Notes: generated by a model not told the origin, from the letters alone. A stretch of 64,000 nucleotides of DNA from Stegostoma tigrinum (GCF_030684315.1 NC_081362.1:96579187-96643186), one strand, 5' to 3'; counted from the stretch's first letter, positions 5,196 to 61,362 are shown. A program made the numbers and translations.

Positions 5196-5315
5196 CTTAA
5201 GGGATTACAGAGATATTAAGTGTAAAAAGTATTGAAGGGCTTGATCAGCTATGATTGAATTATTTGGTTGGGAGAGGCTCAACGGGCTGAATGGTCTACA
5301 CCTGTTCCTGTGGAA

Positions 5316-28838: not shown

Positions 28839-28867
28839 CTGATGAAGGGTCTAGGCCCGAAACGTCA
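28839..28867 (+). ncRNA. Minimal hammerhead ribozyme core
   Basis: CTGATGAAGGGTCTAGGCCCGAAACGTCA. Confidence 0.7.
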
Positions 28868-35400: not shown

Positions 35401-36179
35401 GCTCCTATATTCCTGTGTCACAAAAATGAGGACAACAATTCGGAAATGACTGGCAAAATAAAACCAACACAAACTGCATGACCAGGCAAGGCTAAAGCAT
35501 CAATGAAAACAGAAACTGAGCCCATCACATTGAGAAGCAGGAATGGGTCTAAACCTGAGACCCAGGCAAGGTTCTGGGGAGTTCAAACTTTAATGAACAG
35601 CCTGTCAATCATTATTTTTCCCAACAATGTCAAGTGTATCCAATTTAAGGCACACTTTGCCTCAACCTGATCAAGCTCAGCTCTGCCTGGCACTGTCAAT
35701 CGGCCCATTGCTGGCGGTTAAATGGGAAATTCCAGTAAGCAGACCCTGAAGGGCTGAGATTCTAAATCAGAATGGGCTGGAACCTGGAGGCAACTCACAA
35801 TTCAAGCTGTTTCCACAATGCCCCTGCTGTTGTTCTGCGCAACACTAGAGACAGCAGCAGAAATAGCTCCAAATAATCTCAGTGACAGACTGCACTGTGT
35901 CTTGCATCTTACACCCGCATGCTGAGCTGCTGCACTGTCTCAGGACCCTGTAATCTCAGGGTCTGAGAGAGTCTGGCTTAAAAAGAAGGGAATGATTGTT
36001 TTCTCTCTGATCATTTTCTATCTGAGCCTGTTGTGGAACAGAGACTTTCTGTTTGTTACAAGTTACGATTTGTAAGCGTTCTGGTGATACTGAAGTTCCG
36101 CAATGATGTGGCCCCTGTTTCTTAAAGTCCGTGCATGAAAAATGCTGCAAAAACCAACAGCTGTGTCCCATTTCCTTAC

Positions 36180-36223
36180 CACAACAGGAGCAACTGCTGC
36201 TTGCTCACTGCTGTGTGTTCAAT
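36180..36223 (-). other. Candidate downstream 44-nt exon (3' UTR or relict cytoplasmic exon)
   Basis: Flanked by strong sites ttttctttcag| and |gtaagg; lies downstream of the donor at the end of the TM exon. Confidence 0.45.
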
Positions 36224-38817
36224 CTGAAAGAAAATACAATGAGACCTCTTCAGAACGGAGTCAAGTCATGATTGAGCTCTTTAAACTGGGAAGGAAAGTG
36301 AGGGAAATTGCCAGTGTCATTTTGGGTAGTTTTAGGGGGAGGCAGCTGATGGAAATCCTGGGTACTGCTGTCGTTAAAATGGTCATCATGCCAATTCTAG
36401 ACACTCAGCACAGAGAGAGGACCATCAGCCAATCACACCCATATTAGACCTTTGAAAGTGTCATTGTCCTTAACCACACAATCCTGGTCTTTATCAATAA
36501 CTCTTGATGTCAGTCATCCTCAAATGTTTGTCCAAAACCCTCTTCAAATTCCTCATGGAATCAGTCTCAAACACCTTTTCAGATCGAGTGTTACAGATCC
36601 CAGCAACAATCTCCAGTGAAAACATTTCTCCTTATCAATGCTCTCTACGTTTTTGTTTTTTTTCCTGATGAATGGTGTGTAAAATATATCAGTTTTGAAA
36701 CGTTGAATGATTTTAAAAGAGCCATATATGAACAAAGCTTAGTTTTGTGGGGATTCTTTTAAATGGTTAGAAGGTCATTCTGGAACAGTGATTCAATGCA
36801 GTTGCTCCAAAAAGATATGTGAGTGCCATCAGGGTGTTGGGTGAACATCTGGCATTTTACGGAAATAAGTTAGATATATTTCTGAGTTCATGACAAGCAA
36901 TGTAAATGCATTAAGCTTTTAATTTTGTTTTGAGTTCATTTCAAAAAAAATCCCCGATATTAAATTGAAAAGAAAAGAGTTGAATTCAGAATGAAGTTTG
37001 AATTTCTCTCCCAGCTGAAGTGTTCAGTGGAGAAGAAACCAGTCACGAGAGCAGCAATGTTTTTCCAGTTTGGGAATTTTTTCACACAAGGAGAATTTGG
37101 GACAGAAACCTTCAGAGCTTTTTTTTAAAGCAGTTGAACCACTGGAACAGTGATAGCTTCACGCAATTGGATTCAGAGAAAAAAATACAAAATTAATTTG
37201 ATTGTTCAAAACAGAGAAATGGGCAGGAGTTGGCTTTTTGGAAAATAAAGAGTTGAAATTGGAGTATAACTTCTCTAGACTCGAGTATCTGTCATGGACA
37301 GTAATGGGAATGTTGGTGAAATAATGTTCTGATTCAAGTGTTCAAGTTCTTCTCAATGAAATAAATGGATACACAGTGTGATTTGTTTTGTTTTTCCTCT
37401 CTCTTTGGTGGAATGCACTTAATTTCAATTGTTATAAAACAAAGTCCTGTACGAATATGTCTCAGTGACTGACAATGATGACATATTGAGTTAATCAGGC
37501 AAATGAATTGGCTGAACCATGAGCTTCTTGATTACATCAGGAATCTAACCACGTAAAGCTCATTTTTGGAACAAAGAATAATTCTTGCCTAACATCGTGA
37601 CAAAGATTAAATTAGTTTGATATACATTTACTGTTTCTTACACAGCATTCTGCTCTTCAACAGGGCTCCTAAATAAATGTCACACATTAGATTTATTGAA
37701 CATTTACTACAAAATAACACTGGGATCATCATACTGTCGGGGCTGATGGATTTTACGCAATGCACCACAGGCTTTTCACATCAGCCAAAAAGACAAAATG
37801 GATGATCCGGAAACTTGGATCATTTGCTAAAAAGAGCAGAATTTGTGTGAACAAAACAGGAAAAACATTCACCACATCTAGACAGCATTGTGGGAAACTT
37901 GACCAAGTTGTTGCTGATCCTGTCTGTGGAATGGAGAGATTTCGTCAAGAAACTCACTGCACTTTCAGCTGGTTAAGACCGAGAGTAAACTGAGAAAGAG
38001 AACTGCAACAAGACAATCAAATGGCTGGTATAAGTACAAACAAATACAAAGAAAGGCTTCAGAATCTCATTAAATCATTGGAAGGACACAGGCATAAAAT
38101 GCATTAAAGGGACAATGAACAGGTTGGAAACAGTCTGTCGAGGGGCTGAAGAATGAAGGATCATGGATAAAAAATACAACAGAAATGATTGAGTCCAGAC
38201 ACTCTGCAAATCCATTCACCCAGAGGGTGGGGAGGTTCTGGGAGGTCACAGCAGATTAATGGAAGAGTTACAATCAATGTTAACATTGAAGATTTGATTG
38301 GAAAATGGTGTGAGGATAAATGGGATTGAATGGACAGGATAGGACAGAGAAATGTGGCTTGGGATTTCTGCTGATGTGGAAGTGAAAGACCAGCACAGAT
38401 TGTTGGACCGAGTGGTCTGACACTCCCTTGGCCTTCCCAGCAGTAGACACTGTCCTGCCAGTGAGCCACCAGCATGAAGGCGGACCCCAACACTGGGCTC
38501 TGTGGTATTGATCTGGTGCCTACTGGGGATCCTGCAGGGGATATCTAATGCTTGACCTATTCAAAGCTTTCTGACTGTCACCAGAAGGAGTCTGCGGCCT
38601 GGCACTGAAGGACGTATGATACCACAGAAGAAGCAAACTAGCAGCGACTGGGCATCTGGATGTGCGGGATGGCCTCAACAGTCACTGATCCACCAGTGAC
38701 AATGGATCTGTACAGTGCAGTGAGAATATCAGCACTCACTAAAAACAATCACCTCAATGTCATAAACAATAACTGTGCAGTGACAGAATCAAACCTAAGA
38801 TGGAATGGGATTTACCC

Positions 38818-38966
38818 TTATGTGGAGTCCTTTACTGATGAGCACAGCTTTTTTTTCTGAAGGAGAAATGTGAGCAGGACAATGCAGATCATAATAGCGA
38901 AGCCCAGAATGGTGCCAATGAATAAACTGTGCTTTGAAGTCCGGGGACTACCATAAGAAGAGTCTT
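38818..38966 (-). CDS. Stalk/transmembrane/short cytoplasmic tail exon
   Basis: ttttgcag|AA..., reads EDSSYGSPRTSKHS-LFIGTILGFAIMICIVLLTFLL-QKKKLCSSVKDST*: a 22-aa hydrophobic segment followed by a KKK stop-transfer signal. Not in the ORF track. Confidence 0.85.
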
Positions 38967-41900
38967 CTGCAAAATATCAGAATCACACACACAATCACTT
39001 TAGTCTGACCAGTGTCTAACAACTTCAACAACATAATTCTGAGTTCCTCAGGATATTAACTCCCCTCCCTATCTCCAAAGCCTGTCCACTATCGATAAGG
39101 CACAAGTCAGGAGAGTGATGGACTGCTGGGTGAGTGCAGTTCCAACAACACTCAAGAAACCTAACACCAGCCGGGAGAAAGTAACCCACTTGACTGGAAC
39201 CACAGCCAAAAACATTCACTCCCTCCGCCACCAATGCTCAAAAACAGCAGTATGTATTACATACAAGATGCACTGCTGAAGCTCACCAAAGAAAATCAGA
39301 CAGGATGTTCCAAACCCACGACCTCCTCTATATAGAAGGACAAGGGCAACAGATACATGGGAACACCATCCCCTGCAGTTTCCCCACCAAATTACTCACT
39401 ATCCTGCCTTAGGAATACCTGGCCTTGATGACCATTCTGCCCCTCCACTGATAAAGCACAGCAGCTGTGTGCTCCCTTCCCTGTTCACACCGGCATTCCC
39501 TCCCATTGCCTTACCAGTTACATCAAGCTGGCTCCCTGTTCCATCGACGTAGCTCCACACACTGCAACGGAACACAGCAGTATCATTGACAGTCACATTC
39601 ACAAGTCTCAGAATGTAACTGTTCCTGCTGACATTCCTGGAAACGTGAACACGATCGTGGAAACTCTGGGCCTTGGCGAGGGTGCCATTCACAAACTGGC
39701 TTATCACCCACTCTCTGTTGCTGCCAGGTCGCTGGTAGTGCCAGTGGACATCAGTGTCATTCACACTGGCATTGTACATGGCACACTGGAACTCGACAGT
39801 TTCACCCTCTGGTACCTTGCTGGCCACTGGATACTGAATGAGGACTGGATCAGCCAATGGATCTGTTCATATTGAAGAGAAGAAATAATGTAAATTGAGC
39901 TGTAATATTTTCTAAAATCTCCTCCAGTTTCAATGATGATTTGTAGATTATGACCCATACCGGCTCTGCCTGCTATCACAGCTTCTTGTCCCTGAGCCAT
40001 GTCTCATCTCCAATTCCCTAATCCAAGGGATGTGAGCACCCTTTGGAGAAAGGTTTTCAGGAAACTTTCCCCTTCCCTGATTTGACACAATGTCTGCAGC
40101 TCAGGCTTCAGCTCCTCAACTCAAATCCGACATCCTCAAGCCTGAAATATTTACTCCAGATATAAAAACTGAAAGAACTGTGGGTGCTGTAAATCAGGAA
40201 CCAAACCAATATTGCTGGAAAAGCTCAGGCATATAAACTGATATTTTCCCAGCCATCATCAGTTCTGAGGAAGGGTCACCAGGCCCGAAACGTTAACTCT
40301 GTTTTTCCCTTCACAGATGCTGCCAGACCGGAGCGTTTCCAGCAAATCTGTTTTTGTTTACTCCAGATACGTTCCCTGGATGCCATTCTGTTAAACTCTC
40401 CGATCTCTGTTATTAATGATAAATACAGGCTGATGGAGCGACATTGAGAAACCATTACTGTGTGCATCCTTGGCATAGAACCCTTCACTACAAGAATAGA
40501 GTGTTAGATAATTACAGAATCACACCTTCTACCACCCAGGCTTCTCATGGGCAACATCCATTTGCCTGTTTGTTGTATTTAGTTACAGCGAGTTATAACA
40601 TAACAATACACAACAATTCCAGGCTAACTGAGAGCTGGAACATGTCACCTGAATTCCTGTGTTCCCATCAATTTTTGTCAAAATCATTGGATTCTCTAAA
40701 TCCTTCAGGGAAGGAAATCTGCCATCCTTATCTGGTCTGGCCTGTGTGTGACTCTAGATCCAGTGCAATGTGGTCTGTTCTGATTTCCCGCTGAAATAAC
40801 CAGCTCAGAGACACAGTTTGAAGGCAGTTCGCGATGCAGACCAAATTCTGGCCTTGCCAGAGATGCCCACATCCTATCCAAAAATAAGAAAAACTTCTCT
40901 GAGTCACTCTTCACCTGTCAATTAACTTGAGCGAAATAAAACCCAAAAGAACTGCGGATGCTGTAAATAAGGAACAAAAAACAAGTTGCTGGAAAAGCTC
41001 AGCAGGTCTAGCAGCATTGCTGAAGGAGAACAGTTGTGAATGGGGATTATTAATGATGAACAACAGGTGGTGTGCAATGGCAGGCTCTATTCTGCTCGCA
41101 AAAAAGATCTTGAACTACCTGTGACCTGCCACTTCAATGCACCACCCTGCTCCACGGCCAACATCTCTGTCTCTGGCTTGCTGCAGTGGTTCCAGTGAAA
41201 CCCAACATAAGCTGGAGGAACAATACCTCATTATCTGCTTGGGTACCCTATAGCCCTCCGGACTCAACATTGAGTTCAATAATGTTCAGGCTTAAACTCT
41301 CCAATGTCCTAGTCCCCCCGCCCCACACACATAATCTGCCATTACACACCTTCTATTATTAATCACTCACAATCCCCAAGAACAACTATGCACCTTCCCA
41401 GCCTGATTGCTATCAACCCCCTTGTCTGTCCGACTGTCTTTCTCTGTCTTTGGGCTCTATCCTGTTGTTTACTCCCTACCCCATCCACCTCCCTATTTTC
41501 CGCATATAAACTGATGTTTTCCGATTCACCATCAGTTCTGAGGAAGGGTCACCGGACCCAAAATGTTAACTCTGTTTTCTCCTTCATCAATTAACTTCAG
41601 CAGACTGACGGTACCATGGCTTTGAGAGGTTTCATGCGTCGTGTTTTGTTTTTTGAAGAGAGGTTTGAAGACGAAGGTTTGTTTGTTTGAATGCAATAAA
41701 TTAAACAGCTTGTGAGGTCTTGAGTATTTTTTTAAAGTTGGAACAATAGAACCAGCCTGAATGGGTGGGGTCAAGCTGCCACAAGACCAAACGTTTTAGT
41801 TTTAGTTTTTCAGTAGTAGTTGCTGCTGGGTCTTAAAGTCAGGGATGACAAACTGCAGTTTATCTCTCCCTCCCACTATCTCTCTCTTTCTCTCAGAATT

Positions 41901-44900
41901 TTCTCATGATGCTTTTTCACCTGGACTGGAGCATCACATGTGAGGACACAAGCCATTTCAATGAATTTGTCTTTACCAAGGCTGTGTTTATGGGATGTTA
42001 CTGTATTGGAACAGTTACTGTTTAGTAGTTTAAATAATTTATTACTTTGTTATATTTCCCAATAGAGTTAAGCTGTCCCAACTTCTTCATTTTTCTCTTT
42101 GAACTGTCATGTATGAATGAAGTGTTTTGCTTCAAACATGGAGGTTTGACCAATCGAGTGGCATCTAGAACACAACACTTAGCATTTGCCTTTTAAATAA
42201 GAAAATGTTCGGATCTAGCTATCTTCTTAGTATATTTTGAGGGGTTTGGTCTGGTCCATAACAGCAGCATAATAAAAACTATGGCTACAACAGCAGGTTG
42301 AGGTGAGGAGCTTTGAGGAACTCTGAGTTCCACAGCCTGCCTCGCATCTAATTACAAAGCAGAAATCGGGAGTATGATGGAACCACTTGTCTGGGTGAGT
42401 TCAGCTCCAACACTCAAGAAACCTCTCACCACACAAGACAAAGCAGCCACTTGATTGGCACTCCATATAACATCTTCAACATTTCCTTCCTTTAACACTG
42501 ATTCGTGGGTGTACCATCTACATGATGTCCTGCAAGTACTCACCAAAGTTCTTCCAACAGTAATGTTTGAACTTACAATCTCTACCATCTGAAATGACTG
42601 AGAAGAAATGAGATGGAGAAGCAGAAAGACAGAGATATGAGAAAGAGTTTGAGATTGAAGAACTGGTCCAAGAGAAGAAACAGTTTATTCTATCAGTGAA
42701 TAATACAAGAGAAAGTAACAGCTCTGTGCTTATATTGACCTCCCTGCTTTCACTTTACCAGAGGAACTTGACATTTCCTCAATTCCAATTAATCCAAGTG
42801 GAAGCGATTACTGGGTTAGATTGTGGTAAGATAAACAGGACATACCCATTACAGTCAGCTGGGATCCATTCCCACTGATATCTCCCCACACATTACAATA
42901 ATAGACCCCAGTGTCACTGGGCTGCACGTTTGTGATGGTCAATATGAAGCTGTTATTGGAAGGGTCTCTGGAAGACTGGAATCGCTCAATGAATCCTGGG
43001 CTCCATTGTGTGATGTTCCTTACGTCATCTGTTAAAATCCACTCCATGCTATTTCCTGGTTGCTCCCGATGCCAGTGAACATCAGTGTGTGTCACTGCAG
43101 CCTTCCTCATGGTGCACTGTAGCTGAGCACTGTGACCCTCAGTGGCACGTTCTAGGCTCGGAGACTGGAGAAGGACTGGGACATTTTCACCTTTAGGGCA
43201 AAAAGGGTGAATAAATTAACACTAGTCTGAACTTGAAGAACAGTTCACAGTCATAAATAAAGAACAGATTGTAAATATGAATCAGAGGTTAATTACTCAA
43301 AATAAACAAGAGATTTTGGACCATCAGGCCACCAAATAAAGGGGCGGAATTAGACCATTCAACCTCTCAAGTCTGATTTGCTATCCAACAGGGGATCATT
43401 GTTTCTCAACTCCATTCTCCTGCCTTGTCCCTGAAATACTTGATACCCTAACTGATCAAGAAGCTTTCAATCTCTCTCTTCAATACACCTAATGAATTGG
43501 CCTCCACTGATTTCTGTGGCTATAAGTTTCAGAGATTCACCACCTTCTGGCTGAAGAAATTCCTCCTTATCTCAAATATAAAGGGTTACCCCTTCACACT
43601 GAGACTGTGCTCTCAGGCCACGGTCTCTCCTACATGTGGGAATATATTCTCCATGACAACTCTATCCAGGCCTCCCAGTATTCTGTTGGTTTCAATCAGA
43701 TCACACCTTAGCCTTCTGAACTCCATCCAACATAGAATCAGAGTCCTCAACTGCTCTTCATGTGACATTCCCTTCATCCCCCGGTCATCAATGTGAACAG
43801 AGAAACATAGAAGATGGGAGGAGGCCATTTGGCCCTTTGTGCCTGTTCTGCCATTCATCATAATCATGGCAGATCATCCAACTCAATAGCCTAATCTTGC
43901 TTTCACCCCACAACCTTTTATCCTGATCACCGCAAGTGCTCTATCTAGTCGCCTCTGGAATACATTCAATGTTTTTACATCAACTACTTCAGGCTCACCA
44001 TTCTTTGGGTGAAGGAATGTATCCTCATCTCTGTTCTAAATGGTCTATCCCAAATCCTCATACTGTAACCCCTGGTTCTGGACATGCCCAACATTGGAAA
44101 CACCTTCCCTGCATCTATCCTGTCCAGTCCTATCAGAATGTTAAAAGTCTCTTTGAGATACCCCGTCATTCATCTGAGATCCAGCAAAAACAATCCTAAA
44201 CTAGTCAGTAGCTCCTCATACATCAGACCCACCATCCCCGGAACCAGCCTAGTAAACCTTCGCTGCACTCCCTCAACAGCAAGAGCATTCTTCCACAGTA
44301 AACTGGACACAATATTCCAGGTGTGGTCTCCCCAAGGCCCTGTACATTTGCAATAACACATCCTTGCTCCTAATACCATAAGACATAAGAGTGGAAGTAA
44401 GGCCATTCAGTCCATCGGGTCCACTATGCCATGGCTGATGGGCATTTCAACTCCACTTCCCTGCAGTCTCCCCACAGCTCTTGATTAATTGTGCGATCAA
44501 GAATTTATCAATCTCTGCCTTGAAAACATTTAACGTCCCGGCCTCCACTGCGCTCCGTGGCAATGAATTCCACAGGCCCACCACTCTCTGGCTGAAGAAA
44601 TGTCTCCTCATTTCCATTTTAAATTTATCCCCTCTACTTCTAAGGCTGTGCCCATGGGTCCTAGTCTCCCTGCCTAACAGAAAGAACATCCCAGCATCTG
44701 CCCTTTCTAAGCCATGCATTATCCTGCACTTGAAATCTCTCGCAATGCCAACAAACCGCTTGCCATCTCTGGACCCACTCCACCGTCAGCACATCCTTCC
44801 TTAAAGCCTATTGTTAGAAATAAAGCCACATAAAATCATTGAAAAAAAAATCTTTTAATAAATTCAGACCACTTGAGGTTCTCAGAATTCAGCCTCAAAA

Positions 44901-47900
44901 GTAAAGCTATTTCCTTCAATGTTCAAATCAAGGAGGCAAGTCGGGTTCATAGAGGTATGCCCATGGGAAAAGGAGTCAATCTAAAAGGTTTGGGATTTCT
45001 GTTACCAGAATCAATTTTCAAAAATGCAGCTGAAAAGAATGAAGACAAAGAGAATTCGGCTGATATGTTCACAATATCTTCTTGAACATAAATATAAGAA
45101 ACTGGATCCTGCATTGGTACAGTTTTATAAAACAGCCTCCTCAGAATTGGAATCACAAGCAGTCCCAGAGTGTTATTACTTGAAAGACAAAGTATTAATG
45201 ATGAAATGAAGCCTGCCCAAGTACCAGGAGTTGAGGAACGGACAGAGGTCCACCAGGTCATAGAATCGTAGAATCCCTACAGTGTGGAAACAGGCACTTC
45301 GGCCCAATGAGTCCACACTGACTCTCAGAACATCCCACCCAGCCGCATTCCCGCATTCACCTAATCTATCCATCCCTGAACACTACGGGGAACAGCGTGG
45401 CCAATCCACCTAACCTGCACATGTTTGGACTGTGGGAGGAAATCGGACGAAACCCACACACACACTGGGAGTATGTGCAAACTCCACACAAGCAATTTCC
45501 TGAGGGTGGAATCAAAACCAGGTTCGAGGTGCTGTGAGGCAGCAGTGCTAACCGCTGTGCCACCTTGCCACCATGTAAATTGCTCAACCCGAGGATCAGA
45601 ATAAAATATTACAAATTAGTTCATGAAATTACAACGGCAAACATTTACAGATAAGCAGCAAACAATCTAAAATATTGCAACATTTTTCTTGGTCAGGATT
45701 ATGTAAAGATGTTAAATTTTACCAGACAAGCTGGTCCATATCAGGACTTAGGGGATCCCCAAACCTGAATTAAAACTTCACCTTTGATTCTGATCACAGC
45801 TTTTGAAGAACCACTTAACAGGGTCTGCGTAGGAGCCAAATCTAAAACCAGGAATGGAAACCAATGGGTCACTGCAGTGGCGCAAGAAAGCTGTTCACTG
45901 CCACCTTCTCAAGCGCAATAAGGGTGGGCAATAAATGCTGGCCAAGCTGACACCCACATCTCACAAAGCAAATGAAACAATTGCTGAACTTGAGCTCAGC
46001 TTCCTCCCCACAGTGAATCCATCCCTGAAATCACTGTCCATCACCTCCTCAATCGACTTGATCACAAATATTTTTAAAAAGCTATTTTTAAAGAAAATAG
46101 CTTTACTTTTTAGACTAAATTCTGAGCACCTCAAGTGGTCCGAATTTATTAAAAGATTTTTTTTCAATGATTTTATGTGGCTTTATTTCTAACAATAGGC
46201 TTTAAGGAAGGATGTGCTGACGGTGGAGTGGGTCCAGAGAAGGTAAGCGGGATGTTGGCATTGCGAGAAATTTCATTCATTGGGCTAGCAGTTTTTGCTG
46301 GAGGATGTTATCTCTACTTACTGGTGATATTTAGCAGGATTCCTCTCCCATAGATCCGTCCCTGCACTGAGCAGTAATAGACCCCAGTGTCACTGGGCTG
46401 TACATTTGTGATTGTCAGAATGAAGCTGTTATGGGAAGAATCTCTGGAAGGCTGGAATCGCTCAGTGAATCCTGGGCTCCATTGTGTGGAGCCACTTCTC
46501 GGATGTGTTAAAATCTGCTTCATAATTTGGTTCAGAGACAGCCAGTACCAATGGACATCGATATGTATCACTGCAGCATTCCTCATGGTGCACTGTAACT
46601 GGGCAGTTTGACCTTCGGTGGCATGTTCCAGCCTCGGAGATTGGAGAAGGGCCAGGCCAGTGATACCTTCCAAGGAAAAGATAATAATAATAAGTTTATT
46701 TCCATAAGAGCAGATCCTCCATATTGCTGCATTGAAAGGATCTGACAGGGTAGTAGGAGTTTTCAGTTAAACAGAAAGAACACACTGTTACACTAAATTA
46801 TTGAGCTACATCTGTGACTGATTCAGATAAAATAAAAGCCATGACAGAAGTTAAATAAATAATATGATGCCAAATCATACTTCTTAACTCCCTTCAGAAT
46901 CTCATCACCATTCTAGATGTGCCATTTTCTAGAAGAACAAGGGCAGCAGATACATAGGAACACTATCCCCAACAAGTTCCACTCCCCCAAGCCACTTCCC
47001 ATCCTGACTTGAAAATATATCACTATTCTTTCTCTGTCACTCAGTCAAAATCCTAGAACTTCCTCCCTAAGAGCATTGTGGGTAAACCCACAGCACATGG
47101 GCTGCAGGAGTAAAGAACATAGAACTTCACAGCACAGTACAGGTCCTTCGGCCCTCGATGTTGTGCCGACCTGTCATACCGATCTCAAGCCCATCTAACC
47201 TACACTATTCCATGTACGTCCGTATGCTTATCCAATGGCGACTTAAATGTACCTAAAGTTGGTGAATCTACTACCGTTGCAGGCAAAGCGTTCCATTCCC
47301 TTACTACTCTCTGAGTAAAGAAACCACCTCTGACATCTGTCCTACATCTTTCACCCCTCAATTTAAAGCTATGCCCCCTCGTGCTCACTGTCACCATCCT
47401 AGGAAAAAGGCTCTCCCTATCCACCCTATCTACCCCTCTGATTATTTTATATGTTTCAATTAAGTCACCTCTCAACCTTCTTCTCTCTAATGAAAACAGC
47501 CTCAAGTCCCTCAGCCTTTCCTCGTAAGACCTTCCCTCCATACCAGGCAACATCCGAGTAATTCTCCTCTGCACCCTTTCCAAAGCTTCCACATCCTTCT
47601 TATAATGCCAGAACTGTACACAATACTTCAAGTGCGGCCGCACCAGAGTTTTGTACAGCTTCACCATAACCTCTTGGTTCCAGAACTCGATCCCTCTATT
47701 AATAAAAGCTAAAACACTGTATGCCTTCTTAACAGCCCTGTCAGCCTGGGTGGCAACTTTCAAGGATCTGTGTCCATGGACACCAAGATCTCTCTGCTCA
47801 TCTACACTACCAAGAATCTTACCATTAGCCCAGTACTTTACCTTCTGGTTACTCCTACCAAAGTGCATCACCTCACACTTGTCTGCATTGAACTCCATTT

Positions 47901-50900: not shown

Positions 50901-53900
50901 TAAAAGTGGCAGTTTCTATCCCTAAAGGACACAGTAAATGAGATGAGTTTTTTTCTGATAATCAATAATGATTCATGATCATTATTAGAACCTTAATCCC
51001 AGACTGTTTTTGGTGAATTCAAATTCCACCATCTGCCATGGTGATTTTCAAACCCAAGTCTCTGAATTAACATTGTCGTGGTTATAACTTCTGTGCTGCT
51101 CCTTTGCTTAACTATTCCATGTTTTAAGTTTGATGTTCTGTGTTCTAGAGAGGAGGATGCTGCACCCACCCATCCCCCACCCCCACCAACTCTAATGAAA
51201 CTGAAACACTACTCACATTGCAGATTCAGGCACTGCTCTCTCAGGGTACCCGTCTGACTGATCCCCTTCTCAGTTTCCTCTCAGCACCAGTCATATCGCC
51301 TCGAGACTCTGATCATCTCTGTTGTGTCCCCAGGGCAACATTCCCAAACGTCTTGCAATTGTCATTTCACCCTCAAAAACCTGCTCAACCTTTCCATTTG
51401 CCCCATTACTGCACTATCCCTCCACCTCCACCAATCATCCCAAGGCTGTTTCCACTCTCCCTTCAGCTCAGCAAACAGCCACTTGGCACTAACACCCATA
51501 GATGATGCCTGGGGTTAACTGCAGACAGAGGCAAATTTAGGGAATTACTGAACCTGAACCGACCTTATTGCTCACAGTGATTCCATCTCTGATATCACTC
51601 TCCATCTCCCTATCACCTCCTTAGATTTCTTGATAACAAACTGATCTCCAATTCATTCACAGACTGGAGGTGATTAACATGTAAACTGTACTCACTGTTT
51701 ACAATGAGGTGGCTTCCTCCACCAGGGACATTTCCCCAGGCTGAGCAGTAATAAACCCCAGTATCACTGGACTGCACGTTTGTGATGGTCAGAATGAAGC
51801 TGTTACTAGAGGAATTTCTGGAAGGCTGGATTCGATCAATGAAACCTGAGATCCATTGGATGTAACCATTTCTTTCATGTGTTAAAAGCAGTTTCATATG
51901 ACTGTCTGGTTCTTGTCTGTACCAGTGAACATCGGTGTGTGTCACTGTGGCATTCCTCATTGTGCACTGCAACTGGGCAGTGTGACCCTCAGTGACACAT
52001 TTAAGGATTGGAGACTGGAGAAGGGCCAGACCAGATGTACCTTTAAAGGAAAAACATCAAGAATTTCAGAATCAATTCTCTGGGTTACAATGTGCGGCCA
52101 GTTTTCAAACAAACATTTCAGATGGAACAAGTTGTAGATTAAGTCAAGGAATGGTTTCAGATAGAACCAGTGGAGTTGCAGCAGATCAAACAAAACTTAA
52201 TTCAGTAATTAAATAACTATAATAACTGTTACTATAAATATTGAAAGAGGATCAGCAGTGACAGTGTGTAGAGTGATGTTGCCTGAACAAAGGGTAGCTC
52301 CTGATTACAACTCCCAGGCTCAAGTTCTCTCCACTCTCTGTCCCCACCAGAGGCTCTGAGCTCCTCATGTCTCCCATTCCCTTCTCCCTGATCCCAGCGC
52401 CATCTGGTGACCCATTCATTGCTCAGATAATGCAGCATCTTCTGTGAAGCTATTTCATTCCCTTCCCATACTGTTCACTGCTTTCCTTGAAATGGTCACC
52501 TTTCCCTGAGCCTGTCTCCTCACAATCCTCTAACTGCCATGTTCACAGCAACCCTGAGTATTCACTGGGACTAGATATCCCTTGGGACTGGGGGTATCCT
52601 CATTACTAACTGACCCAAGATCCAACATAAAAGAAACAATCCAATTCCATCAACCTGAAAGCACCCTAACGATTTCAATGTTTACTTTGTTTGTTCATAA
52701 AATCTTTCAAAATGCAAACAAATTCCCATTATCTCTCCAAGAACTCTTTCTGTCAGGTTTTTGTTTTACCGAAATCATAACTCCAGAAGTATTAACATGT
52801 AAATATTTAAATTCCCTCAAACTCACAGAGACCAAAACGTACAGAGACCAAAACCAAATGCCATGTGTTCAAAATCCAAATTCCAAACTAAATGATATTA
52901 AAATTACATGGAAGCCACACACTCACATCACAGAGTTTAAACTCTATGAGGGAGTGCATGAGTAATCAAGCCCCAAATGACCGCAAAGCCACACTGAGTC
53001 AACAATACAGCCAATTTATCTCTCATCTGTCCTCCAGTCCAAAGTTTAAAAAAAAATCAAAACAGTTTGGTAAATGACCTCAAAACCAACGTATTTATTA
53101 TCAACAAGACAAATTCTTGAAACAAGCAGACAATGTGATTAGCAAGCGCATTTCTGTCTACAATTAAAATATATTCCATTCATCTCAAACATATCTTCAT
53201 TCACAGCCAAGGAAACACTGCTCTGCAGAAATAGTTCAGGTTGTTTCTTTAAAAAAAAAGGCCAGAATGAAAGGCTTTTCCAATGCTGCAAGCAACTTAC
53301 ATCGAAAGGTAGAATGTGTTGACTTCTCAGATTCCTTCGATTTCTTGTCAATGAGGCTGATTCTTGAAAGTTATGTCATGGTGGGAGATCTCCTGACCAT
53401 ATTTCAGATTCCAACGGGAAATAACTTGAAGTTCTGATATTGTAAATGTTATCTTTACAAATCCTACGTAAAGAGATCTTATCTGCTTTTTCCTTGTCTT
53501 TTATTTACTGAGAGGGAGAAATTGTGTAGCTGGGCCTGCTTGAAGTTTCCTTCTGTTTTTTTTACCAGAAGAGAGGGATCTCTCCTCACTGCTTTTGGTC
53601 AGCTTGACATTTTAATTCAGCTGCTCTCCTTTTGGTCTGTGAAAGCACACAGCAACTCAAGCCCAGAAACTGTTGCTAGGCTGCAATCAAAATCAATCAG
53701 CCCAGCAACTTAACAATAAAACCCATTTCTTATATTTTCTTGGCATCTTTGATTGATTGGAAGTTAATTTGAATTTTGTAAACTGTAACAGATTTTTGAT
53801 CATGTGACAAAACTTCTTCATTCAAGAGATTGCCAAACAGTTTCATATTCCAGTTTCTCACAGGCCATATATTTTTATGTTGTCTGAAAATGAGTTTCTC

Positions 53901-56900
53901 TTCAGTGTTTTCTTTTTGCTACAGAATTTGAAAGTGTTGTTCTTACATTACCGTGTGAAGTTGATGACTTTTTTTTAAACTAAAAAGTATACACCTTGGT
54001 CTGTCTCCAAACATCCATTAGAATTGCACTTCTAATTAAAATTTTCTCTACTGCTCTCATTTCTCCAACTAATCTGAGTGTCCTCACATCTCTCTGCATT
54101 AACTCTGATCTGATATTAGCTGTCCACTCACCCACAATGGGGCAAGTAGAAGAGAAAACCCCAGAAACTACCTGAACCAGAATGGGGGTGGGGGGAGGGG
54201 TGAAGACATGCTCTCAGCAATATTCAACACGAAACTCCAGCTAATTATGTTGGAAACTCCCAGAATACTGTGATCACTCTTCCCTAGTCATGTAGCTCAG
54301 ATGGCTGGAGTATAATGTCGCATAATGACAATGTCCCAGCTTTAATCGCAGTCTCAATTGTGGGAGCTTGGATGGATCGAAAGGAAGGATCGAAACTGAA
54401 GCAAAAGTGAAGTGGGAATGGAGTTTATGATTAAGGAAAAAGTTACTACTGTAACAAAAGAATATATTTCTGAAAAATCATTCAGTGAAAATATATGGGT
54501 TGAAATCAGAAATAAAAAGGGAATGATTACCTTGATGAGATAGTATTTTAGATCCCCAATGTTCAGATGGAAATTGAGGACCAAATAGGCAGAGAGATCT
54601 CAGATATATATGGGACTGCCATCATGTTAAAGATTTGGATTGTGAAGAATTTGTCAAATTTTCTTGAAATGTTCCTATTAGAAAAGGAGCAAACTATAAC
54701 CTTCACTTAGGTAATAAGACTGGGCAAATGATCGAAGTGATCGTTGGTAATAATTCTATTTATTTTTAAATTGTTATGGAAACAAAATAAGACTTCCATA
54801 AAAATTAAAGATTTTTTAAAATCAGACTAAGGTAAATTTTAGTGGTATGAGACAAGAAATGTCAAAATTTGATTGAAATAGACTGTTCACAAGTAAAGGG
54901 ATGTCTGATAAGTCATGTGGTGACAGAGTCATTATGTTCTTATTAGAATGAATCGTATGGCTGATAGGATTAGAAAACAATGGATAAATAAAGATGTTGA
55001 GGTTATGGTCAAGATTTAAAACAAAATACACAGTCGATGTAAGCAACTGGGTTCAAATGAATCTCTTGAGCAGTATAAAGAGTGTCAGGGCTTTGTTAAG
55101 ATGGAGATCAGGAAAGCAAAAAGAGGATATGAGATAGACTTGGCAAGTAAGGTCCAAGATAATCCAACGAGATTCTGCAAGTACATTAAGAGGGCAGGGC
55201 CTGTTCAAGATCAAAGAGTTCATCTTTGTGTTGAGCCTCAGAAGATGAGATTAAATGACAACTTTGTGTCAGTTTTTTACTGAGGAGAAACCAATAGAAG
55301 CTGGAGTACTTCGGGAAATAAATATTGATGTTTTTAAAACAGTTCGTTTGACAAAAGAGGAAGTGCTGTAGGCCTCGGAAAATATCAAGATAGATAGATC
55401 TTCCTGACATGATCTAATGCATCGTGGGAATTTTTGGGAAGTTAGGAAAGAAATTTCAGGGCCCCATGCAAAAATATTTGTGTCATTCATAACTAGGTGA
55501 TGTACTGAATGATTGGAGAGTAGTCAATGTTGTGCCTTTGATGAAGAAAGGATGTATCTGGGGGAACTATAGACCTGTGAGTCTGACTTCGGTGGTGGCT
55601 AAGTTGGAAGTGGTTCTGAAATATAGGATTTATATGAATTTGGAGAGGCAAAGAATGATTAGGGATGATCAGCATGGTTTTGTGTGAGGGAAATTTGTCT
55701 CACAAACTTGAGTGAGTTTTTGAGGAAGTAACTAAGAAGATTGATAGGGGCAGCACAGGAGGCATTGTTTATTTGGATTTTAACAAAGTCTTCGACAAGG
55801 TTCCTCATGGTAGACTAATTAATAAAGTTAGATCGCCTGGGATTCAGGGTGGACTTGCCAACTGGATACAAGTTTGGCCGAATGGCAGGAGACAGAGAGT
55901 GATGTTAGAGAGCTGTTTCTCAGGCTGGAAGCCTGTTACCAGCAGTGTTATACAGGGATCAGTACTGGGTCCACTTTTGTCTGCCATTTATAGAAATGAT
56001 TTAGATGAGAATACAGAAGGTATGGTTGGTACATTTGTGGAGTACACCAAGATTGTGGTATAGTGGAGAGTGTATAAGATCATCTAAGATTACAAAGAGA
56101 TCTCGATCAATTAGGTCAGTGCATTGAGGAGTGGCAGGAGGCGTTTAGTTTTGATAAATGCAAGGTATTGAATTTTGGTCAAACAAACAAGGGTAAGACT
56201 TATACAATTAAAAGCAGGGCCTTGGGTGGTGCTGTAGAACAGAAAGACAAAGGAATTCAGGGACATAATTCTTTGAATTTTGCATCATGTATAAATAGGA
56301 TCTTTTAGAAAGCACTGAGCATGCTGGCCTCATTGCTCAGACCTTTGAATATGGAAGTTGGGACATCATGTTGAACTTGTACTGGACATTACTGTGACCT
56401 TTTCTAGAGCATTGTGTCCAGTTCTGGTGTATTGTTATATGAAGAATGTAATGAAGTTTCGAAAGGGTCAGAAGAGATTTACCAAGCCGTTGCTGGGAAT
56501 GGAAGGTTTCAATTGTGGGGAGATGTCAGATGCTGGGACATTTTTCACTGGAGCATAGGAGATTGAGGGGTGAGATTTATGAAATCATGAGAGGTGGAGA
56601 TAAGGTGAAAGGCAGGTCATTTCCTTAGGGTGGAGATTTCAAGATTGTGGGCATCTGTTTAAAGTGAGAGAAGAAAGATTTTAAAAGGCATGCAGGGCAA
56701 TATTAGTACACAGAGTGGCTCATGTGTGGAATGAGCTTCTACAGGAAGTGGTGGATGCAGGTACAGTTATGACATCTCAAAGACATTTAGATAAGGACAT
56801 GAAAAAGAGATGTTTGGAAAGATAGGGGCCCATTGCAGGCAGATGGGACTAAAGTTCTTGAGTAGATTTGTAGCTCAGGTTGTGGATGCTGTGGTCGGTT

Positions 56901-59390
56901 TGTTCGCTGAGCCGGTTCGCTCGTGTGTAGATGTTTCAACACCCTCCTGGGCAACATCATCAGTGCAGCCTCTGATGTTACGACTCATTTATTTTGGGAT
57001 TCTGGTCAGCAGGGACTGGTTGGGACGACAGGTCTGTTTGTGTGATGTATAATTCAAAGAGTGAGCCCCTCCTCTTGCTCTGTGCTCGATGTGGAGTGGC
57101 TCCCTTTAACCTGGATCAAATAAAAATGTCTCTTGAATGGAGAGAGATGTGTGTGCCCCTTTGTGAACTATGGTTCATTTCCAATCCCTGGGAGATTCCC
57201 TGCAGATGTGGCGCCTGACAGAGCAATCTCCCTGACTCTGCTCATCCAGCCCAATGGTACTGACACTCTAGTGAATCAAATGGAATTTATATCAGTCATT
57301 CCGCAAGACAAAGCTTCACATTTCCCACAAAATCTTCCTCCCATTATCACAAAAACACACCCTTTCTCCCACAAACCTACCAACATCGAACCTGAGCTCA
57401 GCTTCCTCCTGACAGTGAATCCATCCCTGAGATTACTCTCCAATCCTCAGGATTATTCATCATGAACTGATCCCCAAATCATTCATTGGGCAAGAGGTTA
57501 TTGCTGGAGAGGTTTGTTGTGTAAACGCTACTTACTGTCTACAATGAGCCGGCTCCCTCCACCACTGATCCTTCCCCAGATTGAGCAGTAATAGACCCCA
57601 GTGTCACTGGGCTGCACGTTTGTGATGGTCAGAATGAAGTTGTTCCTGGAGGAGTTTCTAGAAGACTGGAATCGCGTTTTCAAACCTGAGTACCACTGCT
57701 TGTGATTCCATGTGTAATAAGCTAGGTACCGTTGTACATAATTCCACGAGTAATGCACCAAAATCCACTCGCTCCTTCTTCCTGGTCGCTCCCGGGACCA
57801 GTGAACATCGATGTGTGTCACTGCGACGTTCCTCATGGTGCACTGTAACCGGGCAGTGTGACCCTCGGTGATTCGTTCCATGATCGGAGACTGGAGAAGG
57901 ACTGGGAAATTTGCATCTTAAAAATAGTTAAAAATAAATCAATAAATGAACAGCAGTCTGTTTGTTCGAAACTCCCACTAGGATTTAACGGCACCCTCCC
58001 AGTAGTCTTTGGCCTGAAAAACAACAGAGCCAAGGAGGGATTGATTAATGTTTGATTAAGGAAGTAATTTTGTGGGGAACATGTTACTGATTCGAACGGT
58101 TCCCGGAGGCTGATGGTGAAGATAAATATCATTCCCTTACAATCAGAAAAGAGGAATTTATAATAGGGAATAAAGAATTAGCTCACCCACTAATACAAAC
58201 CTTGGTTCTGTATTCAGAAAAGAGATCTTAAGTAACATTCTTAATAAGATCCCACACATTAGGCTGCATAAGACGATCAGATAATAGTATGGATAAAGGA
58301 ATAGGCATTGAAGAGAAGACAGACAGTTGGGGAAACGTGTCCTTTTAAGAATGACAGCCTGCAGCTATTGGAGTGTCGCACGGATCGGTGCTGGCGACAT
58401 AATAATTGACGATGTACCCAGAAAACAGTTTGTTTTCTTGTCTGTGTTCCGAGCCTGTAGACCTCGATGTCAGCTTGACGAAACAGTCTCCAGACAGTGA
58501 TAAATCTTTGCAAAGAACAAAGAAAGTTACAGCTCAGGAACAGGCCCTTCAGCCCTCCAAGCCTGCATCGACATGCTGCCCATCATAACAAAGACCTCCT
58601 AACCTTCCGGGGACCTATATTCCCATTCTATTCATGTATTTGTTAATATGCCTTTCAATGACGCTATCGCATCTCCACTGCCTCTACCTTCCCTAGCAGC
58701 GAGTTTCAGGAACCCAGCACCCTCTGCGTAAAAAAAAACTCGCCTTGTACATCACCTTTAAATCTTGCCCCTCACATCTTAAACTTATGCCCCCGAGTAG
58801 CTGAATCTTCCACCTTGGGAAAAAGCTTCTGACTGTCCAGTCTCTCCATGCCCTCCTTCATAATCTTGCACACTTCTATCAGGTCACCCCTCAACCTCTG
58901 TCATTCCAGTGAGAACAACGCAAATGACTTCAACCTCTTTTCACAGCTAATACCCTCCAAACCAGGCAACATCCTGGTAAATCTGTCCTGCACTGTCCCC
59001 AAAGCCACCATATCCTTCTGGTAGTGTGGTGACCCAAATTGAACACAATATTCCAAGTGTGGCCTAACTAAAGTTCCATAAAGCTGCAACATTACCTGCC
59101 AATTTATAAACTCAATGCCCTGGCTGATGAAGGCAAGCATGATGTATGCCTTGTTGACTGCCTTCTCTATCCGTGTTGCCACTTTCAGGAACCTGTGTAC
59201 CTGTACATCCAGATCCCTGTGATACTTGTGACACTCCCCTCCAGTTCAAACTTATAGAATTCACACAAACTCCTCAATAGCACAAACCATGGGAAGGTCT
59301 TTTATAACAAGGTAAACTCCTCCAAAGCAAACACTTACCCAAAGCACCATAGAGGCACAGGGTCACGGCGATTAGAGTGCCACGGATCAT
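38818..59390 (-). CDS. Multi-exon gene: type I membrane IgSF receptor, Leader-(VJ)x5-TM-short tail, 654 aa; exons 59390-59339, 57916-57536, 52040-51696, 46666-46322, 43190-42846, 39862-39515, 38966-38818
   Basis: Manual splicing: every junction is GT-AG and phase 1. Exon lengths 52+381+345+345+345+348+149=1965 nt give one open frame ending in TAA. Each V exon has the canonical Cys, Trp, DxxxY/FxC and a GxG J-like strand. Confidence 0.85.
39515..39862 (-). CDS. Ig VJ-domain exon 5 (membrane-proximal, divergent, glycosylation-rich)
   Basis: gaacag|AT..., reads DPVLIQYP...FQC...VHWHYQRPG...DTAVFRCSVWSYVDGTGSQLDVT, ends G|gtaagg; 348 nt. Confidence 0.92.
41605..42263 (+). mobile_element. Probable solo LTR (Gypsy-type)
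   Basis: TG...CA ends (tgacggtacc ... gtctggtccataaca), T-rich U3-like body, no ORF. Confidence 0.5.
42846..43190 (-). CDS. Ig VJ-domain exon 4
   Basis: ccctaaag|GT..., reads VPVLLQSP...LQC...VHWHREQPG...DTGVYYCNVWGDISGNGSQLTVM, ends G|gtatgt; 345 nt. Confidence 0.92.
43330..44720 (-). mobile_element. Cluster of three CR1 3' fragments
   Basis: Repeated CR1 C-terminal remnants (EFRRLR.DLIET, QRRFTRLVPG, MRRHFFSQRVVGLWNSLP) with 3' tails. Confidence 0.8.
44731..46275. repeat. Inverted repeat pair, ~185-bp arms (44731-44916 and 46091-46275), in the intron between V3 and V4
   Basis: tgaaatctctcgcaatgccaac...gtaaagctattt is the reverse complement of aaatagctttac...gttggcattgcgagaaatttca, with scattered mismatches. 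Confidence 0.85.
45260..45573 (-). mobile_element. HE1-like V-SINE inserted in a Gypsy integrase remnant
   Basis: SINE reverse complement; flanks encode Gypsy-like remnants (AVPECYYLKDKVLMMK before, AFEEP after). Confidence 0.7.
46322..46666 (-). CDS. Ig VJ-domain exon 3
   Basis: ccttggaag|GT..., reads LALLQSP...LQC...VHWYW...DTGVYYCSVQGRIYGRGILLNIT, ends A|gtaagt; 345 nt. Confidence 0.92.
47114..48103 (-). mobile_element. Young CR1 LINE 3' fragment with open RT C-terminal ORF
   Basis: ORF 47200-48078 VLGPLLFVIFINDLD...KFADDTK...RGDLIETYK; (gttctat)n-like tail. Confidence 0.92.
48120..48212. repeat. Trinucleotide microsatellite (AAT)n/(GAT,GGT)n
   Basis: aataataataa followed by gatggtgatggtgatggtgatgacgatgatg. 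Confidence 0.85.
48806..48982. mobile_element. Short palindromic Penelope-like terminal insertion with HHR core (48870-48898, minus)
   Basis: Inverted termini; TSD taagttgaatata at 48793-48805 and 48983-48995; inserted in an old CR1. Confidence 0.8.
49847..50626 (-). mobile_element. Young CR1 3' fragment (same family as 47114-48103) nested in an older plus-strand CR1
   Basis: Nearly identical to the 47114-47880 copy; KCEVMHFGRSN...VRPHLEYCVQFWSP. Confidence 0.9.
51696..52040 (-). CDS. Ig VJ-domain exon 2
   Basis: cctttaaag|GT..., reads LALLQSP...LQC...VHWYRQEP...DTGVYYCSAWGNVPGGGSHLIVN, ends A|gtgagt; 345 nt. Confidence 0.92.
54430..56850 (+). mobile_element. Old CR1 LINE
   Basis: Remnants IRKAKRGYE, DFNKVFDKVPHGRL, QGSVLGPLL; many stops. 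Confidence 0.8.
57536..57916 (-). CDS. Ig VJ-domain exon 1 (membrane-distal; extended CDR2)
   Basis: ttttaag|AT..., reads DANFPVLLQSP...LQC...VHWSRERPG...DTGVYYCSIWGRISGGGSRLIVD, ends A|gtaag; 381 nt. Confidence 0.92.
58513..59218 (-). mobile_element. CR1 3' fragment in the leader-V1 intron
   Basis: LVRPHLEYCVQFGSPHYQKD...RFTRMLPGL. Confidence 0.85.
59339..59390 (-). CDS. Leader (signal peptide) exon MIRGTLIAVTLCLYGAL
   Basis: ATG followed by a hydrophobic 17-aa stretch ending G|gtaagt (phase 1), the typical IgSF leader exon, 1.4 kb upstream of the first V exon. Confidence 0.85.
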
Positions 59391-59459
59391 CTCAATAGTG
59401 ACACCACTTAGTCACACCGTTTATTGTACGTCCAGTTAATACACAAAGCTCAAAGGGTC

Positions 59460-59555
59460 CAAGCCATCTGCAGCTTCTTTAATGTCTCAGTCCTCAGGAG
59501 TTAAAGAAGTTAAAGTGTTAGTAAAGGGGAAGCAGTGATAATAAACCAATGGCTG
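59460..59555 (-). promoter_or_regulatory. Possible proximal promoter of the VJ-receptor gene
   Basis: Unique, non-repeat sequence just upstream of the leader with an E-box (CAGATG), a PU.1/ETS-like AAAGGGGAAG, TGATAA and CCAAT. Short motifs only. Confidence 0.25.
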
Positions 59556-59729
59556 CTGTCTTCTGAGGGAGGATATTACTGGTTGGAATTTCTGAATGTG
59601 GCATGGTGAAGTTCATTTCAGGTGTTAATTATTTATTCAGTGCAAGTTCCTCATACTCACTCACTTAAACATGGAGAATTCACACATTTGATGCAACCCT
59701 TTAAATGGTCCAAACATCCATGGAAAATC

Positions 59730-61362
59730 ATTGGGTTGGTCTTTATGGTAGAAGATACATTGAACATTCCAATAAAACTAAAGAACATTAGGGAGAGAGT
59801 CAGTCCTATCTCTGTCACTGAAGCAGCCGTGTTAGATGAACTCATGGGGCTGAGGGCAGATCAGTCCCTGGCCTTGATGGCTTGCATCCTAGGATCCTGA
59901 AAGAAGGAGCTACAACAATATTAGATGCATTGTTTGTAATTTTCCAATACTCCTTGTATTCTGGACAAGTATGAGATGATTGAAAAGCTGAAAATTTGAC
60001 ACTCCTAACTGAAAATGAGGGGGGCAAATCATGCATTTCTGAATACCAACAAGCAGAATATCTGTTGTTGAAAAATTGCTGGAATCAATTACTAAAGAAT
60101 CAATTTGGAAAATCATAGTCTAATCGAGCAAAGTCAGCAAAGCTTCATGAAAGGGAAATCATGTTTGACTAATTTATTGGAGCTTTTCAAGGAATTCTCA
60201 ACCCAAGTGGGTAGAGGGGAACCAGTAGTTGTACATTTTTGGACTTCCAGAAGGTGTTAAACAAGCTACCTGTCAAAAGGTTCAGTCAGTAGATAAGAGC
60301 TCACCATGATGGAGGGGATGTATTGGTAAGGAATATTGAGAATTGGCTCAAGGGATTCCTTTCAGGTTGATGATCCATGACCAATGGGCTTCCTTAAGAA
60401 TCAGTGCTGGAATTGCCACTGTTTACAATGTACATTAATGATGAGGAGTGGGGAAGTGAAAATTCTGGAGCCACATTTGCAGCTGACACAAAAAATAGAT
60501 GGAAAGGCAGATTGCATAAGGAATACAAACAGTTTACAGAGAGATATTGGTAGACTAAGTAAGCAGGAAGAAAGCTGCCTGATGGAGTACACTGTAGGCA
60601 AATGTGAAGTTGTTCATTTTTAAAGGGAGAACAAAATAATGGAATATTATTTAAATGGAGAGGAACTACAGGAAGCTGCAATGAAAAGGGACTGGGGGGG
60701 ACTAGTGCACAAAACACAGAAAGCTAGCACACAGGTGTAGCAGGTAATCAGGAAGGCGAATGGAATGTGGGCCCTTACTGTTGGAGAACAAGAGTTTGGA
60801 AGTCTTACTGCAACTGTGCAAGGTGCTGGAGAGATTATGTATACTTGGTTTCATTATTTAAGAAAAAAAAATATCAGAAGCAGTTCTGACAAGGTTCACT
60901 CAGGATGATTCCTGGAATGGAGGGACTGCATTCTGGACAAAGTTTAAATAAGTTGAAATTTTCCTCACTGGGGTTGAGAAGAAAGAGAAGAGACCTAATT
61001 GAAACATGTATAATTGTAAAGGGGCTTGCCAGGGTAAATGCTGAAAGAGAGTCTCAGACTACACTGTTGAGAGAGTCTAGGAGGAGAGGACATTCTCTCA
61101 GAATAAAGAGACATGAATTTCCTCTCTCAGAGCGTTATGAGTCTTTGGAACTCCTTGCCACGGTGAGTTGTGAAGGAAGAGTCCTTATTTATATTGAAGG
61201 CTGAGACTGATAGATTCTTGATCAGTCAGGAGTCAAGAGTTGAGGAAATTGCAAGAAAATGGGTGTGTGGAATGCTGGAATAGTGTGATCCTGCTGAATG
61301 GCAGAGCAGGTTCATAGGGCTGACTGGCCTACTCCTGTTCCTGTCGTTCATTGTCTTATGGT
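59730..61362 (+). mobile_element. Old CR1 LINE
   Basis: Remnants GFMKGKSCLTNLLE, DFQK, KCEVVHF, RRDLIET. Confidence 0.75.

What the first reader, a model, noticed from the sequence alone, without database searches (positions are those of the whole stretch)
57690..57761. 36-nt tandem duplication creates an aromatic, doubled CDR2 in the distal V domain
Seen: V1 is 381 nt versus 345 nt for V2-V4. The excess is a diverged 12-codon duplication, LVHYSWNYVQRY / LAYYTWNHKQWY (57726-57761 and 57690-57725), containing 6 Tyr, 3 Trp and 2 His. Inference: the frame is preserved and the two units differ mostly by amino-acid-changing substitutions, suggesting a selected, protruding ligand-binding loop on the outermost domain.
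Basis: partly seen in the sequence, partly recalled or inferred. Interest (0 to 1): 0.7.

Follow-up and report, generated by a model that had tools for sequence, protein, structure and literature searches.

The report
Doubled loop on shark decoy receptor
A 12-amino-acid stretch in the outermost domain of a zebra-shark immune-type receptor is doubled here and in three other carpet sharks, and this gene has lost its signalling tail, so it likely acts as a decoy whose binding surface was likely reshaped by the extra aromatic loop.

Summary
The duplication is real. V1 is 381 nt against 345 nt for V2-V4. Whale, epaulette and brownbanded bamboo shark orthologues carry it too, and these domains form one clade, so it arose once, likely over 66 million years ago.

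The selection argument fails. Per site the units differ more at silent than at amino-acid-changing positions. AlphaFold2 folds V1 as a normal V domain, uses unit 1 as CDR2 plus C'' strand, and leaves unit 2 as a low-confidence loop.

The gene (leader, five pre-joined VJ domains, membrane anchor) belongs to a clustered cartilaginous-fish family with ITIM- or ITAM-type tails, closest to one light-chain type. The scan found this family before on other DNA. This member is signal-dead: the last ITIM exon is deleted and the tail exons hold stops, yet its ectodomain is intact while an inverted copy lost all five V exons.

Best reading: a likely decoy with a likely reshaped binding edge. Expression and ligand are untested.

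The parts
59339..59390 (-). Leader exon (52 nt, ATG, GT donor, phase 1)
   Evidence: matches the leader of whale shark orthologue P0060; absent from NCBI model P0001
57536..57916 (-). V1 exon, single-exon VJ-type V-set domain, 381 nt
57719..57754 (-). Duplication unit 1 (from base 2 of the His55 codon); predicted C' end, CDR2 turn and C'' strand
   Evidence: models
57683..57718 (-). Duplication unit 2; low-confidence loop before strand D; 9 of 12 residues invariant in four orthologues. The junction codon TAT (Tyr67) is inferred to be a hybrid of the Phe and His codons that flanked the ancestral unit
51696..52040 (-). V2 exon, 345 nt
46322..46666 (-). V3 exon, 345 nt
42846..43190 (-). V4 exon, 345 nt
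39515..39862 (-). V5 exon, 348 nt, membrane-proximal type, five N-glycan sequons
38816..38966 (-). Transmembrane exon, no charged residue in the anchor; ends in TAA (38820-38818) where the inverted copy has Gln, leaving a tail of about 13 residues without Tyr
37626..37668 (-). Remnant of cytoplasmic exon 1: Tyr codon changed to TAA in this copy; normal donor lost in both copies
36180..36223 (-). Remnant of cytoplasmic exon 2: stop right after the acceptor, in both copies; a V5-to-C2 splice would give a secreted five-domain protein
35975..35978 (-). Junction of a deletion of about 1.3 kb that removed the last cytoplasmic exon (the one with the ITIM-type motifs in intact paralogues)
   Evidence: homology to paralogue L027 jumps from 5020 to 6314, the exon lies at L027:5896-6015; no match to that exon in the window
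56000..60000 (.). Tract about 99.4% identical (23 mismatches in about 4 kb) to the inverted copy, against about 95% on either side; likely gene conversion over leader and V1

Best explanation
An in-frame 36-nt tandem duplication, shared by four carpet sharks, adds a second aromatic 12-residue segment to the outermost V domain of a five-V receptor whose signalling exons are deleted or stopped, so the protein likely works as a membrane-bound or secreted decoy and the extra segment likely reshapes its binding edge. Shown: the duplication, its presence in four species in one clade, the intact leader-V1-V5-TM frame, the dead tail, the family context with ITIM- and ITAM-type tails. Predicted: V1 keeps the V fold with unit 2 as a surface loop between C'' and D. 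Inferred: origin by slippage or unequal crossover starting at base 2 of the His55 codon; V1 does not pair like a light chain (Ser where the J motif has Phe), so its front sheet and C'' edge would be free to bind; the ligand is likely a microbial or self structure also seen by inhibitory sisters; the decoy would soak it up without signalling. Untested: expression, ligand, any effect of the loop on binding.
For: Duplication in P0060 (whale shark), P0063 (brownbanded bamboo shark), P0005/P0061/P0062 (epaulette shark). 6 of 180 domains have Cys-Cys spacing 85, all V1 of these genes; 174 have 71-75. The five duplication-bearing domains form one clade (SH-aLRT 90, quick tree) that follows the species split, inside a group of single-unit N-terminal domains. 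Unit 2 is 9/12 invariant across four species against 72/103 for the rest of V1, and 12/12 identical between zebra and whale shark. A pseudo-exon with the same duplication has stops in both units and a branch of 0.59 against 0.015-0.093 for the open copies. The inverted copy (about 95% identical) has 5 of 5 V exons disabled; the window copy has 0 of 5. Tail: last exon deleted, stops in TM end, C1 and C2. 0 of 6 duplication-bearing protein models has a tyrosine motif, while 44 of 55 family proteins with a membrane anchor have ITIM-, ITSM- or ITAM-like motifs. V1 has one N-glycan sequon against five in V5.
Against: No positive-selection signal between units. Unit 1 is less conserved (6/12) than the rest of the domain, and V1 as a whole evolves fast (88/120 identical between zebra and epaulette shark), so constraint on the insert is no stronger than on the framework. 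The loop is unresolved in both models. The NCBI zebra shark model P0001 starts at an internal Met and omits the leader, so use of the leader-V1 splice is not established. Tail loss outside zebra shark rests on automatic gene models, one of them truncated (P0063). That one gene lineage has both the duplication and the dead tail is a single event pair, not a correlation.
Confidence: 0.5

Rival explanations
1. The insertion is a tolerated passenger: it loops out harmlessly at the C''-D link, fixed by drift, and the gene is kept for the rest of its ectodomain.
For: Both models leave it unstructured; conservation about equals the framework (15/24 vs 72/103); pN < pS between units; indels of 1-2 residues occur elsewhere in the family.
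Against: No other insertion this large in 180 family domains; seven Tyr/Trp positions plus His55 are invariant in four species; 9-11 exposed aromatic residues in 24 would likely be costly if useless (inference).
Confidence: 0.27
2. One reading: unit 2 supplies the C'' strand, unit 1 loops out at the tip as a long CDR2 that was driven by positive selection to bind antigen.
For: Either unit could in principle form C''; unit 2 is the more conserved and is closer in DNA to single-unit sisters (23-26/36 vs 20-21/36), which fits unit 2 holding the structural role; unit 1 varies more among species.
Against: Both AlphaFold2 models put the strand at residues 61-64, in unit 1; no excess of amino-acid change.
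Confidence: 0.15
3. The gene is a dying or non-translated copy: tail lost first, leader not used, ectodomain merely not yet hit.
For: Four separate lesions in the tail exons; NCBI model lacks the leader; many pseudogenes in the cluster.
Against: About 1,770 nt of V exons open while the 95%-identical copy lost all five; open V exons in three other species; canonical splice sites at all ectodomain exons.
Confidence: 0.08

Closest known systems
Ig light chain clusters on G000:C60, taken to be sigma-2 (sigma-cart, NS5, type I); isotype label recalled, synonyms from PMC5985310
   Same: Closest V domains outside the family: mean 41% identity against 31% or less for every other class, best match for 24 of 24 family domains; that cluster includes pre-joined VJ exons, one with the same short CDR3 length.
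   Different: No constant exon in the fetched cluster DNA, no recombination signals, several V domains in tandem, membrane anchor, tyrosine-motif tails; V1 has Ser at the J-motif Phe.
Paired ITIM/ITAM receptor families with decoy or soluble members (CEACAM, SIRP, LILR; recalled)
   Same: Clustered genes, similar ectodomains, opposite tail motifs (33 ITIM/ITSM-type, 11 ITAM-type), gene conversion at the distal domain, members without a signalling tail.
   Different: Ectodomain is made only of light-chain-like VJ domains; no homology beyond the Ig fold is claimed.
Non-rearranging single-exon VJ genes NCR3/NKp30 and UrIg/UrIg2 (PMC12227049)
   Same: V and J in one exon, no rearrangement.
   Different: Five V domains rather than one; no charged membrane residue (NKp30 feature recalled); no C1 domains (UrIg has three per PMC12227049); only 26-28% identity to the NCR3-like exons on C44 (label is my guess).
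Duplication-type insertions in antibody CDRs made during somatic hypermutation (recalled)
   Same: In-frame tandem copy of local sequence lengthens a V-domain loop.
   Different: This one is in the germ line, fixed across species, and covers a whole strand, not only the loop.

Membership tests
V-set Ig domain | B-F disulfide, C-strand Trp, D-x-x-x-Y-x-C motif, Pfam V-set above cut-off | tested here: met
   V-set 58.1 bits (cut-off 26) for V1; 5 of 5 domains pass
V-set Ig domain | V fold kept despite the insertion | tested here: met
   predicted only: pLDDT 77 and 86; best VIA Z 18.2, rmsd 1.4-2.1 over 111-114 residues to antibody V domains
Rearranging Ig/TCR gene | Split V and J with recombination signals | tested here: not met
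   no heptamer or nonamer in or after V1; the two heptamer-like words in V2 and V4 are inside coding sequence; J-like strand is in the same exon
Ig light chain sigma-2 | VJ followed by a CL exon | tested here: not met
   CL query finds the C60, C34 and C282 loci but nothing in the window or 40 fetched cluster loci (not the whole cluster was fetched)
Ig light chain sigma-2 | V domain descends from this isotype | tested here: inconclusive
   identity favours it and a split with SH-aLRT 95 separates family + C60 + C282 from other IgL, TCR gamma and VH, but the 62-row tree leaves deep forks open: family + C60 in 4 of 400 bootstrap trees, with C282 in 31 of 400
NCR3/NKp30 | Single VJ domain and charged membrane residue (recalled) | tested here: not met
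   five V domains, uncharged anchor
NCR3/NKp30 | One clade with NCR3 V domains | tested here: inconclusive
   0 of 400 bootstrap trees, but AU test p 0.134 does not reject; identity of the C44 exons as NCR3 is a guess
NCR3/NKp30 | MHC linkage | not tested
   flanking genes were not mapped
UrIg/UrIg2 | One VJ plus three C1 domains, secreted only | tested here: not met
   exon structure; definition from PMC12227049 introduction
Paired ITIM/ITAM receptor family (mode of action) | Clustered similar ectodomains with inhibitory- and activating-type tails | tested here: met
   motif level only: 33 ITIM/ITSM-type and 11 ITAM-type of 55 anchored proteins among 80 scanned (isoforms included); cluster
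Paired ITIM/ITAM receptor family (mode of action) | Phosphatase or Syk recruitment and opposite signalling | not testable with these tools
   needs cell assays
Decoy receptor | Intact ectodomain without signalling motif | tested here: met
Decoy receptor | Expressed and competes for the ligand of a signalling sister | not testable with these tools
   no ligand known

The most novel reading that the evidence does not exclude
A pre-joined antibody light-chain VJ exon was recycled into a paired innate receptor family of sharks, rays and chimaeras, the route proposed without an example in PMC2193156. In carpet sharks one member then became a decoy: it dropped its inhibitory tail and doubled a C'-C'' segment into an extra aromatic hairpin that grips a microbial ligand of the inhibitory sisters, with gene conversion refreshing that domain.
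Probability: 0.2. Interest if true: 0.8.

Novelty: new variant of a known kind. Interest (0 to 1): 0.48.

Why it matters
Single-exon VJ genes are sought as clues to the origin of antibodies and T-cell receptors (PMC12227049). This family is closest to one light-chain type, so it may show the reverse traffic, from adaptive to innate immunity. The finding adds a worked case inside it: a datable, single-origin doubling of a strand-and-loop unit in the distal domain, paired with loss of signalling. That gives a clean natural experiment: single-unit inhibitory sisters against a double-unit tailless member. It also shows that a V domain likely tolerates a whole extra C'-C'' unit. Without a ligand or expression data the loop alone is a modest curiosity.

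Tried and rejected
Assembly artefact: rejected; orthologues in three other species carry the duplication. A DNA contig covers 57621-57841 with 0 differences (run X12), but it may come from the assembled sample and cannot tell the two identical copies apart. Positive selection between units: rejected. Expression: no RNA holder listed; seven runs guessed to be RNA, of other organisms, showed V-to-V joints of family members, but no listed contig covered the doubled segment; this is no evidence either way. V1 homodimer prediction: no verdict, score 0.22 against a mark of 0.32, alignment not used; no evidence either way. ESM Atlas: unavailable. Tandem Repeats Finder missed the repeat. Alignment A1 split multi-domain proteins across domains and was discarded. 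Polarised dN/dS on the V1 branch was too thin to read (4 synonymous, 14 non-synonymous). Deep phylogeny was unresolved. A search aimed at the doubled segment found only the two known clusters among 2 candidates, weak evidence for restriction to carpet sharks. Literature: searches listed no paper describing this family or duplication (I saw titles and abstract starts only). Three likely relevant papers were not held and most subscription journals are outside the library, so absence from print is not established. No supplements were read; genes listed there could bear on novelty.

Full report
Observation. On the minus strand the window holds five V-set exons. With splice sites mapped, V1 is 381 nt, V2-V4 345 nt and V5 348 nt. 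2 of 1000 codon shuffles reach 24, and V2-V5 score 19-21. The units are therefore 57754-57719 and 57718-57683. This register starts at base 2 of the His55 codon and ends at base 1 of the codon after Gly, which would make the Tyr67 codon a junction product rather than a substitution (inference). The aromatic counts are right. The claim about amino-acid-changing differences is not: per site pS exceeds pN in both registers (1.08 vs 0.24; 0.67 vs 0.29), on small counts.

Age and spread. The window is G000:C11:96579187-96643186. Its gene model is P0001, labelled Stegostoma tigrinum. The same 12-residue excess is in V1 of whale shark P0060, brownbanded bamboo shark P0063 and epaulette shark P0005, P0061, P0062. 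6 of 180 parsed family domains have Cys-Cys spacing 85, all from these genes; 174 have 71-75. Two more copies lie in the own genome: a near-identical one at 96302922 and a stop-ridden one at 96494647. In a 144-row quick tree the duplication-bearing domains form one clade (SH-aLRT 90), split into bamboo + epaulette and zebra + whale + pseudo-exon, among single-unit N-terminal domains. Sparse columns were dropped, so the insert should not drive that grouping. PMC8529718 (passages read) has these families diverging before the K-Pg boundary, except whale and zebra shark, so the event is likely older than 66 million years (boundary date recalled).

Constraint. Across four species unit 1 is 6/12 invariant, unit 2 9/12 and the rest of V1 72/103. 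The insert is held about as tightly as the framework, not more. Single-unit domains carry 0-3 Y/W/F in the matching 12 residues (82 distinct 12-mers; 5 have three), while the doubled segments carry 8-11 in 24. So the aromatic load was partly inherited, doubled and somewhat enriched. The gene as a whole is under purifying selection. An inverted copy at about 95% identity has a frameshift and lost donor in V1, a deletion of most of V2, stops in V3, V4 and V5 and a frameshift in V4, while the window copy has none of these. Leader and V1 sit in a 4-kb tract about 99.4% identical between the copies, likely gene conversion.

Structure. Two AlphaFold2 runs (23- and 18-row alignments; the second includes the orthologues) give mean pLDDT 77 and 86 and a standard V fold, matching antibody V domains. 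Both place C' at 49-55 and a strand at 61-63/64, and leave 66-78 or 69-78 below pLDDT 50. The extra segment is thus predicted as a loop between C'' and D, with its shape unknown. A short extra hairpin, or the swapped register with unit 1 at the tip, remains possible. V1 has Ser at the position of the J-motif Phe, so light-chain-style pairing is unlikely (inference). It has one N-glycan sequon against five in V5, which fits a distal binding domain on a glycosylated stalk.

The gene is signal-dead. The leader exon is intact, though NCBI's model omits it. The TM exon ends in TAA, exon C1 has a stop and lost donor, exon C2 starts with a stop, and the last exon, which carries ITIM-type motifs in intact paralogues, was removed by a 1.3-kb deletion at about 35976. 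The deletion, C2 stop and C1 donor loss are shared with the inverted copy, so they predate it. Whale and epaulette shark models read through the C2 donor or end early, and 0 of 6 duplication-bearing models has a tyrosine motif; these are automatic models and one is truncated. Predicted products are a membrane form with a tail of about 13 residues and, by V5-to-C2 splicing as in two orthologue models, a secreted form.

Family. The gene lies in a cluster of dozens of related exons, with relatives in sharks, rays and Callorhinchus. Of 80 proteins scanned (isoforms included), 55 have an anchor: 33 ITIM/ITSM-type, 11 ITAM-type, 5 other Tyr, 6 none. V and J are in one exon without recombination signals. 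The nearest outside V domains are the light-chain clusters on C60 (41% vs 31% or less; best for 24 of 24), which I take to be sigma-2 from recall. PMC5985310 (passages) gives the synonyms and notes joined sigma-2 VJ in other lineages. Trees do not resolve descent. PMC2193156 (passages) proposed that a rejoined Ig gene could become a novel receptor and said it had no direct example. PMC12227049 (abstract, introduction, passages) describes UrIg and names NCR3 as single-exon VJ genes, neither matching this architecture. PMC10751288 (passages) added nothing on it. I reached the family reading before looking (note). Eight unreviewed scan notes on other genomes say the same, and no note matched my word search for this duplication.

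Mechanism and verdict. Most likely (0.5) this is a decoy or ligand sink of a paired receptor family, whose distal domain gained an aromatic surface segment that likely alters binding. The feature is real, old and retained. Its function is inferred, and expression and ligand are untested. Interest 0.48.

Noticed in passing
G000:C11:~96297000-96360000 (L003-L009) vs window 4391-63545: Inverted segmental duplicate of most of the window; identity about 99% at 4-27 kb and 56-60 kb, about 95% elsewhere; its copy of the gene has all five V exons disabled.
   Followed up: yes
L034:1204-7081 (G000:C11:96491204-96497081): Third, older duplication-bearing copy (leader, doubled V1, another V), with stops in both units; keeps ancestral-type residues at the unit junction.
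   Followed up: partly
L035:6580-7092: The short tyrosine-bearing cytoplasmic exon of a paralogue is repeated seven times at 76-nt spacing; at least two copies in L031:9249-9378.
   Followed up: no
window 59339-59390: NCBI model P0001 (two accessions) omits an apparently intact leader exon and starts at Met13 of V1.
   Followed up: partly
L041:3688-7182 (G000:C60): Pre-joined light-chain VJ with its C exon and a CDR3 as short as in the receptor family; a candidate for the donor type.
   Followed up: partly
L050:3701-4536 (G000:C282): Divergent pre-joined VJ followed by a light-chain-like C exon; isotype not identified.
   Followed up: no
G000:C11:97363325 (L039): A family V exon lies in a 1546-codon open frame; relative P0077 has a V followed by a long Asn-rich repeat, possibly a mucin-like stalk.
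   Followed up: no
window 18007-20427, 27000-32500: Several copies of a retroelement, one with an 806-codon reverse-transcriptase-like frame (type judged from recall, Penelope-like), downstream of the gene.
   Followed up: no
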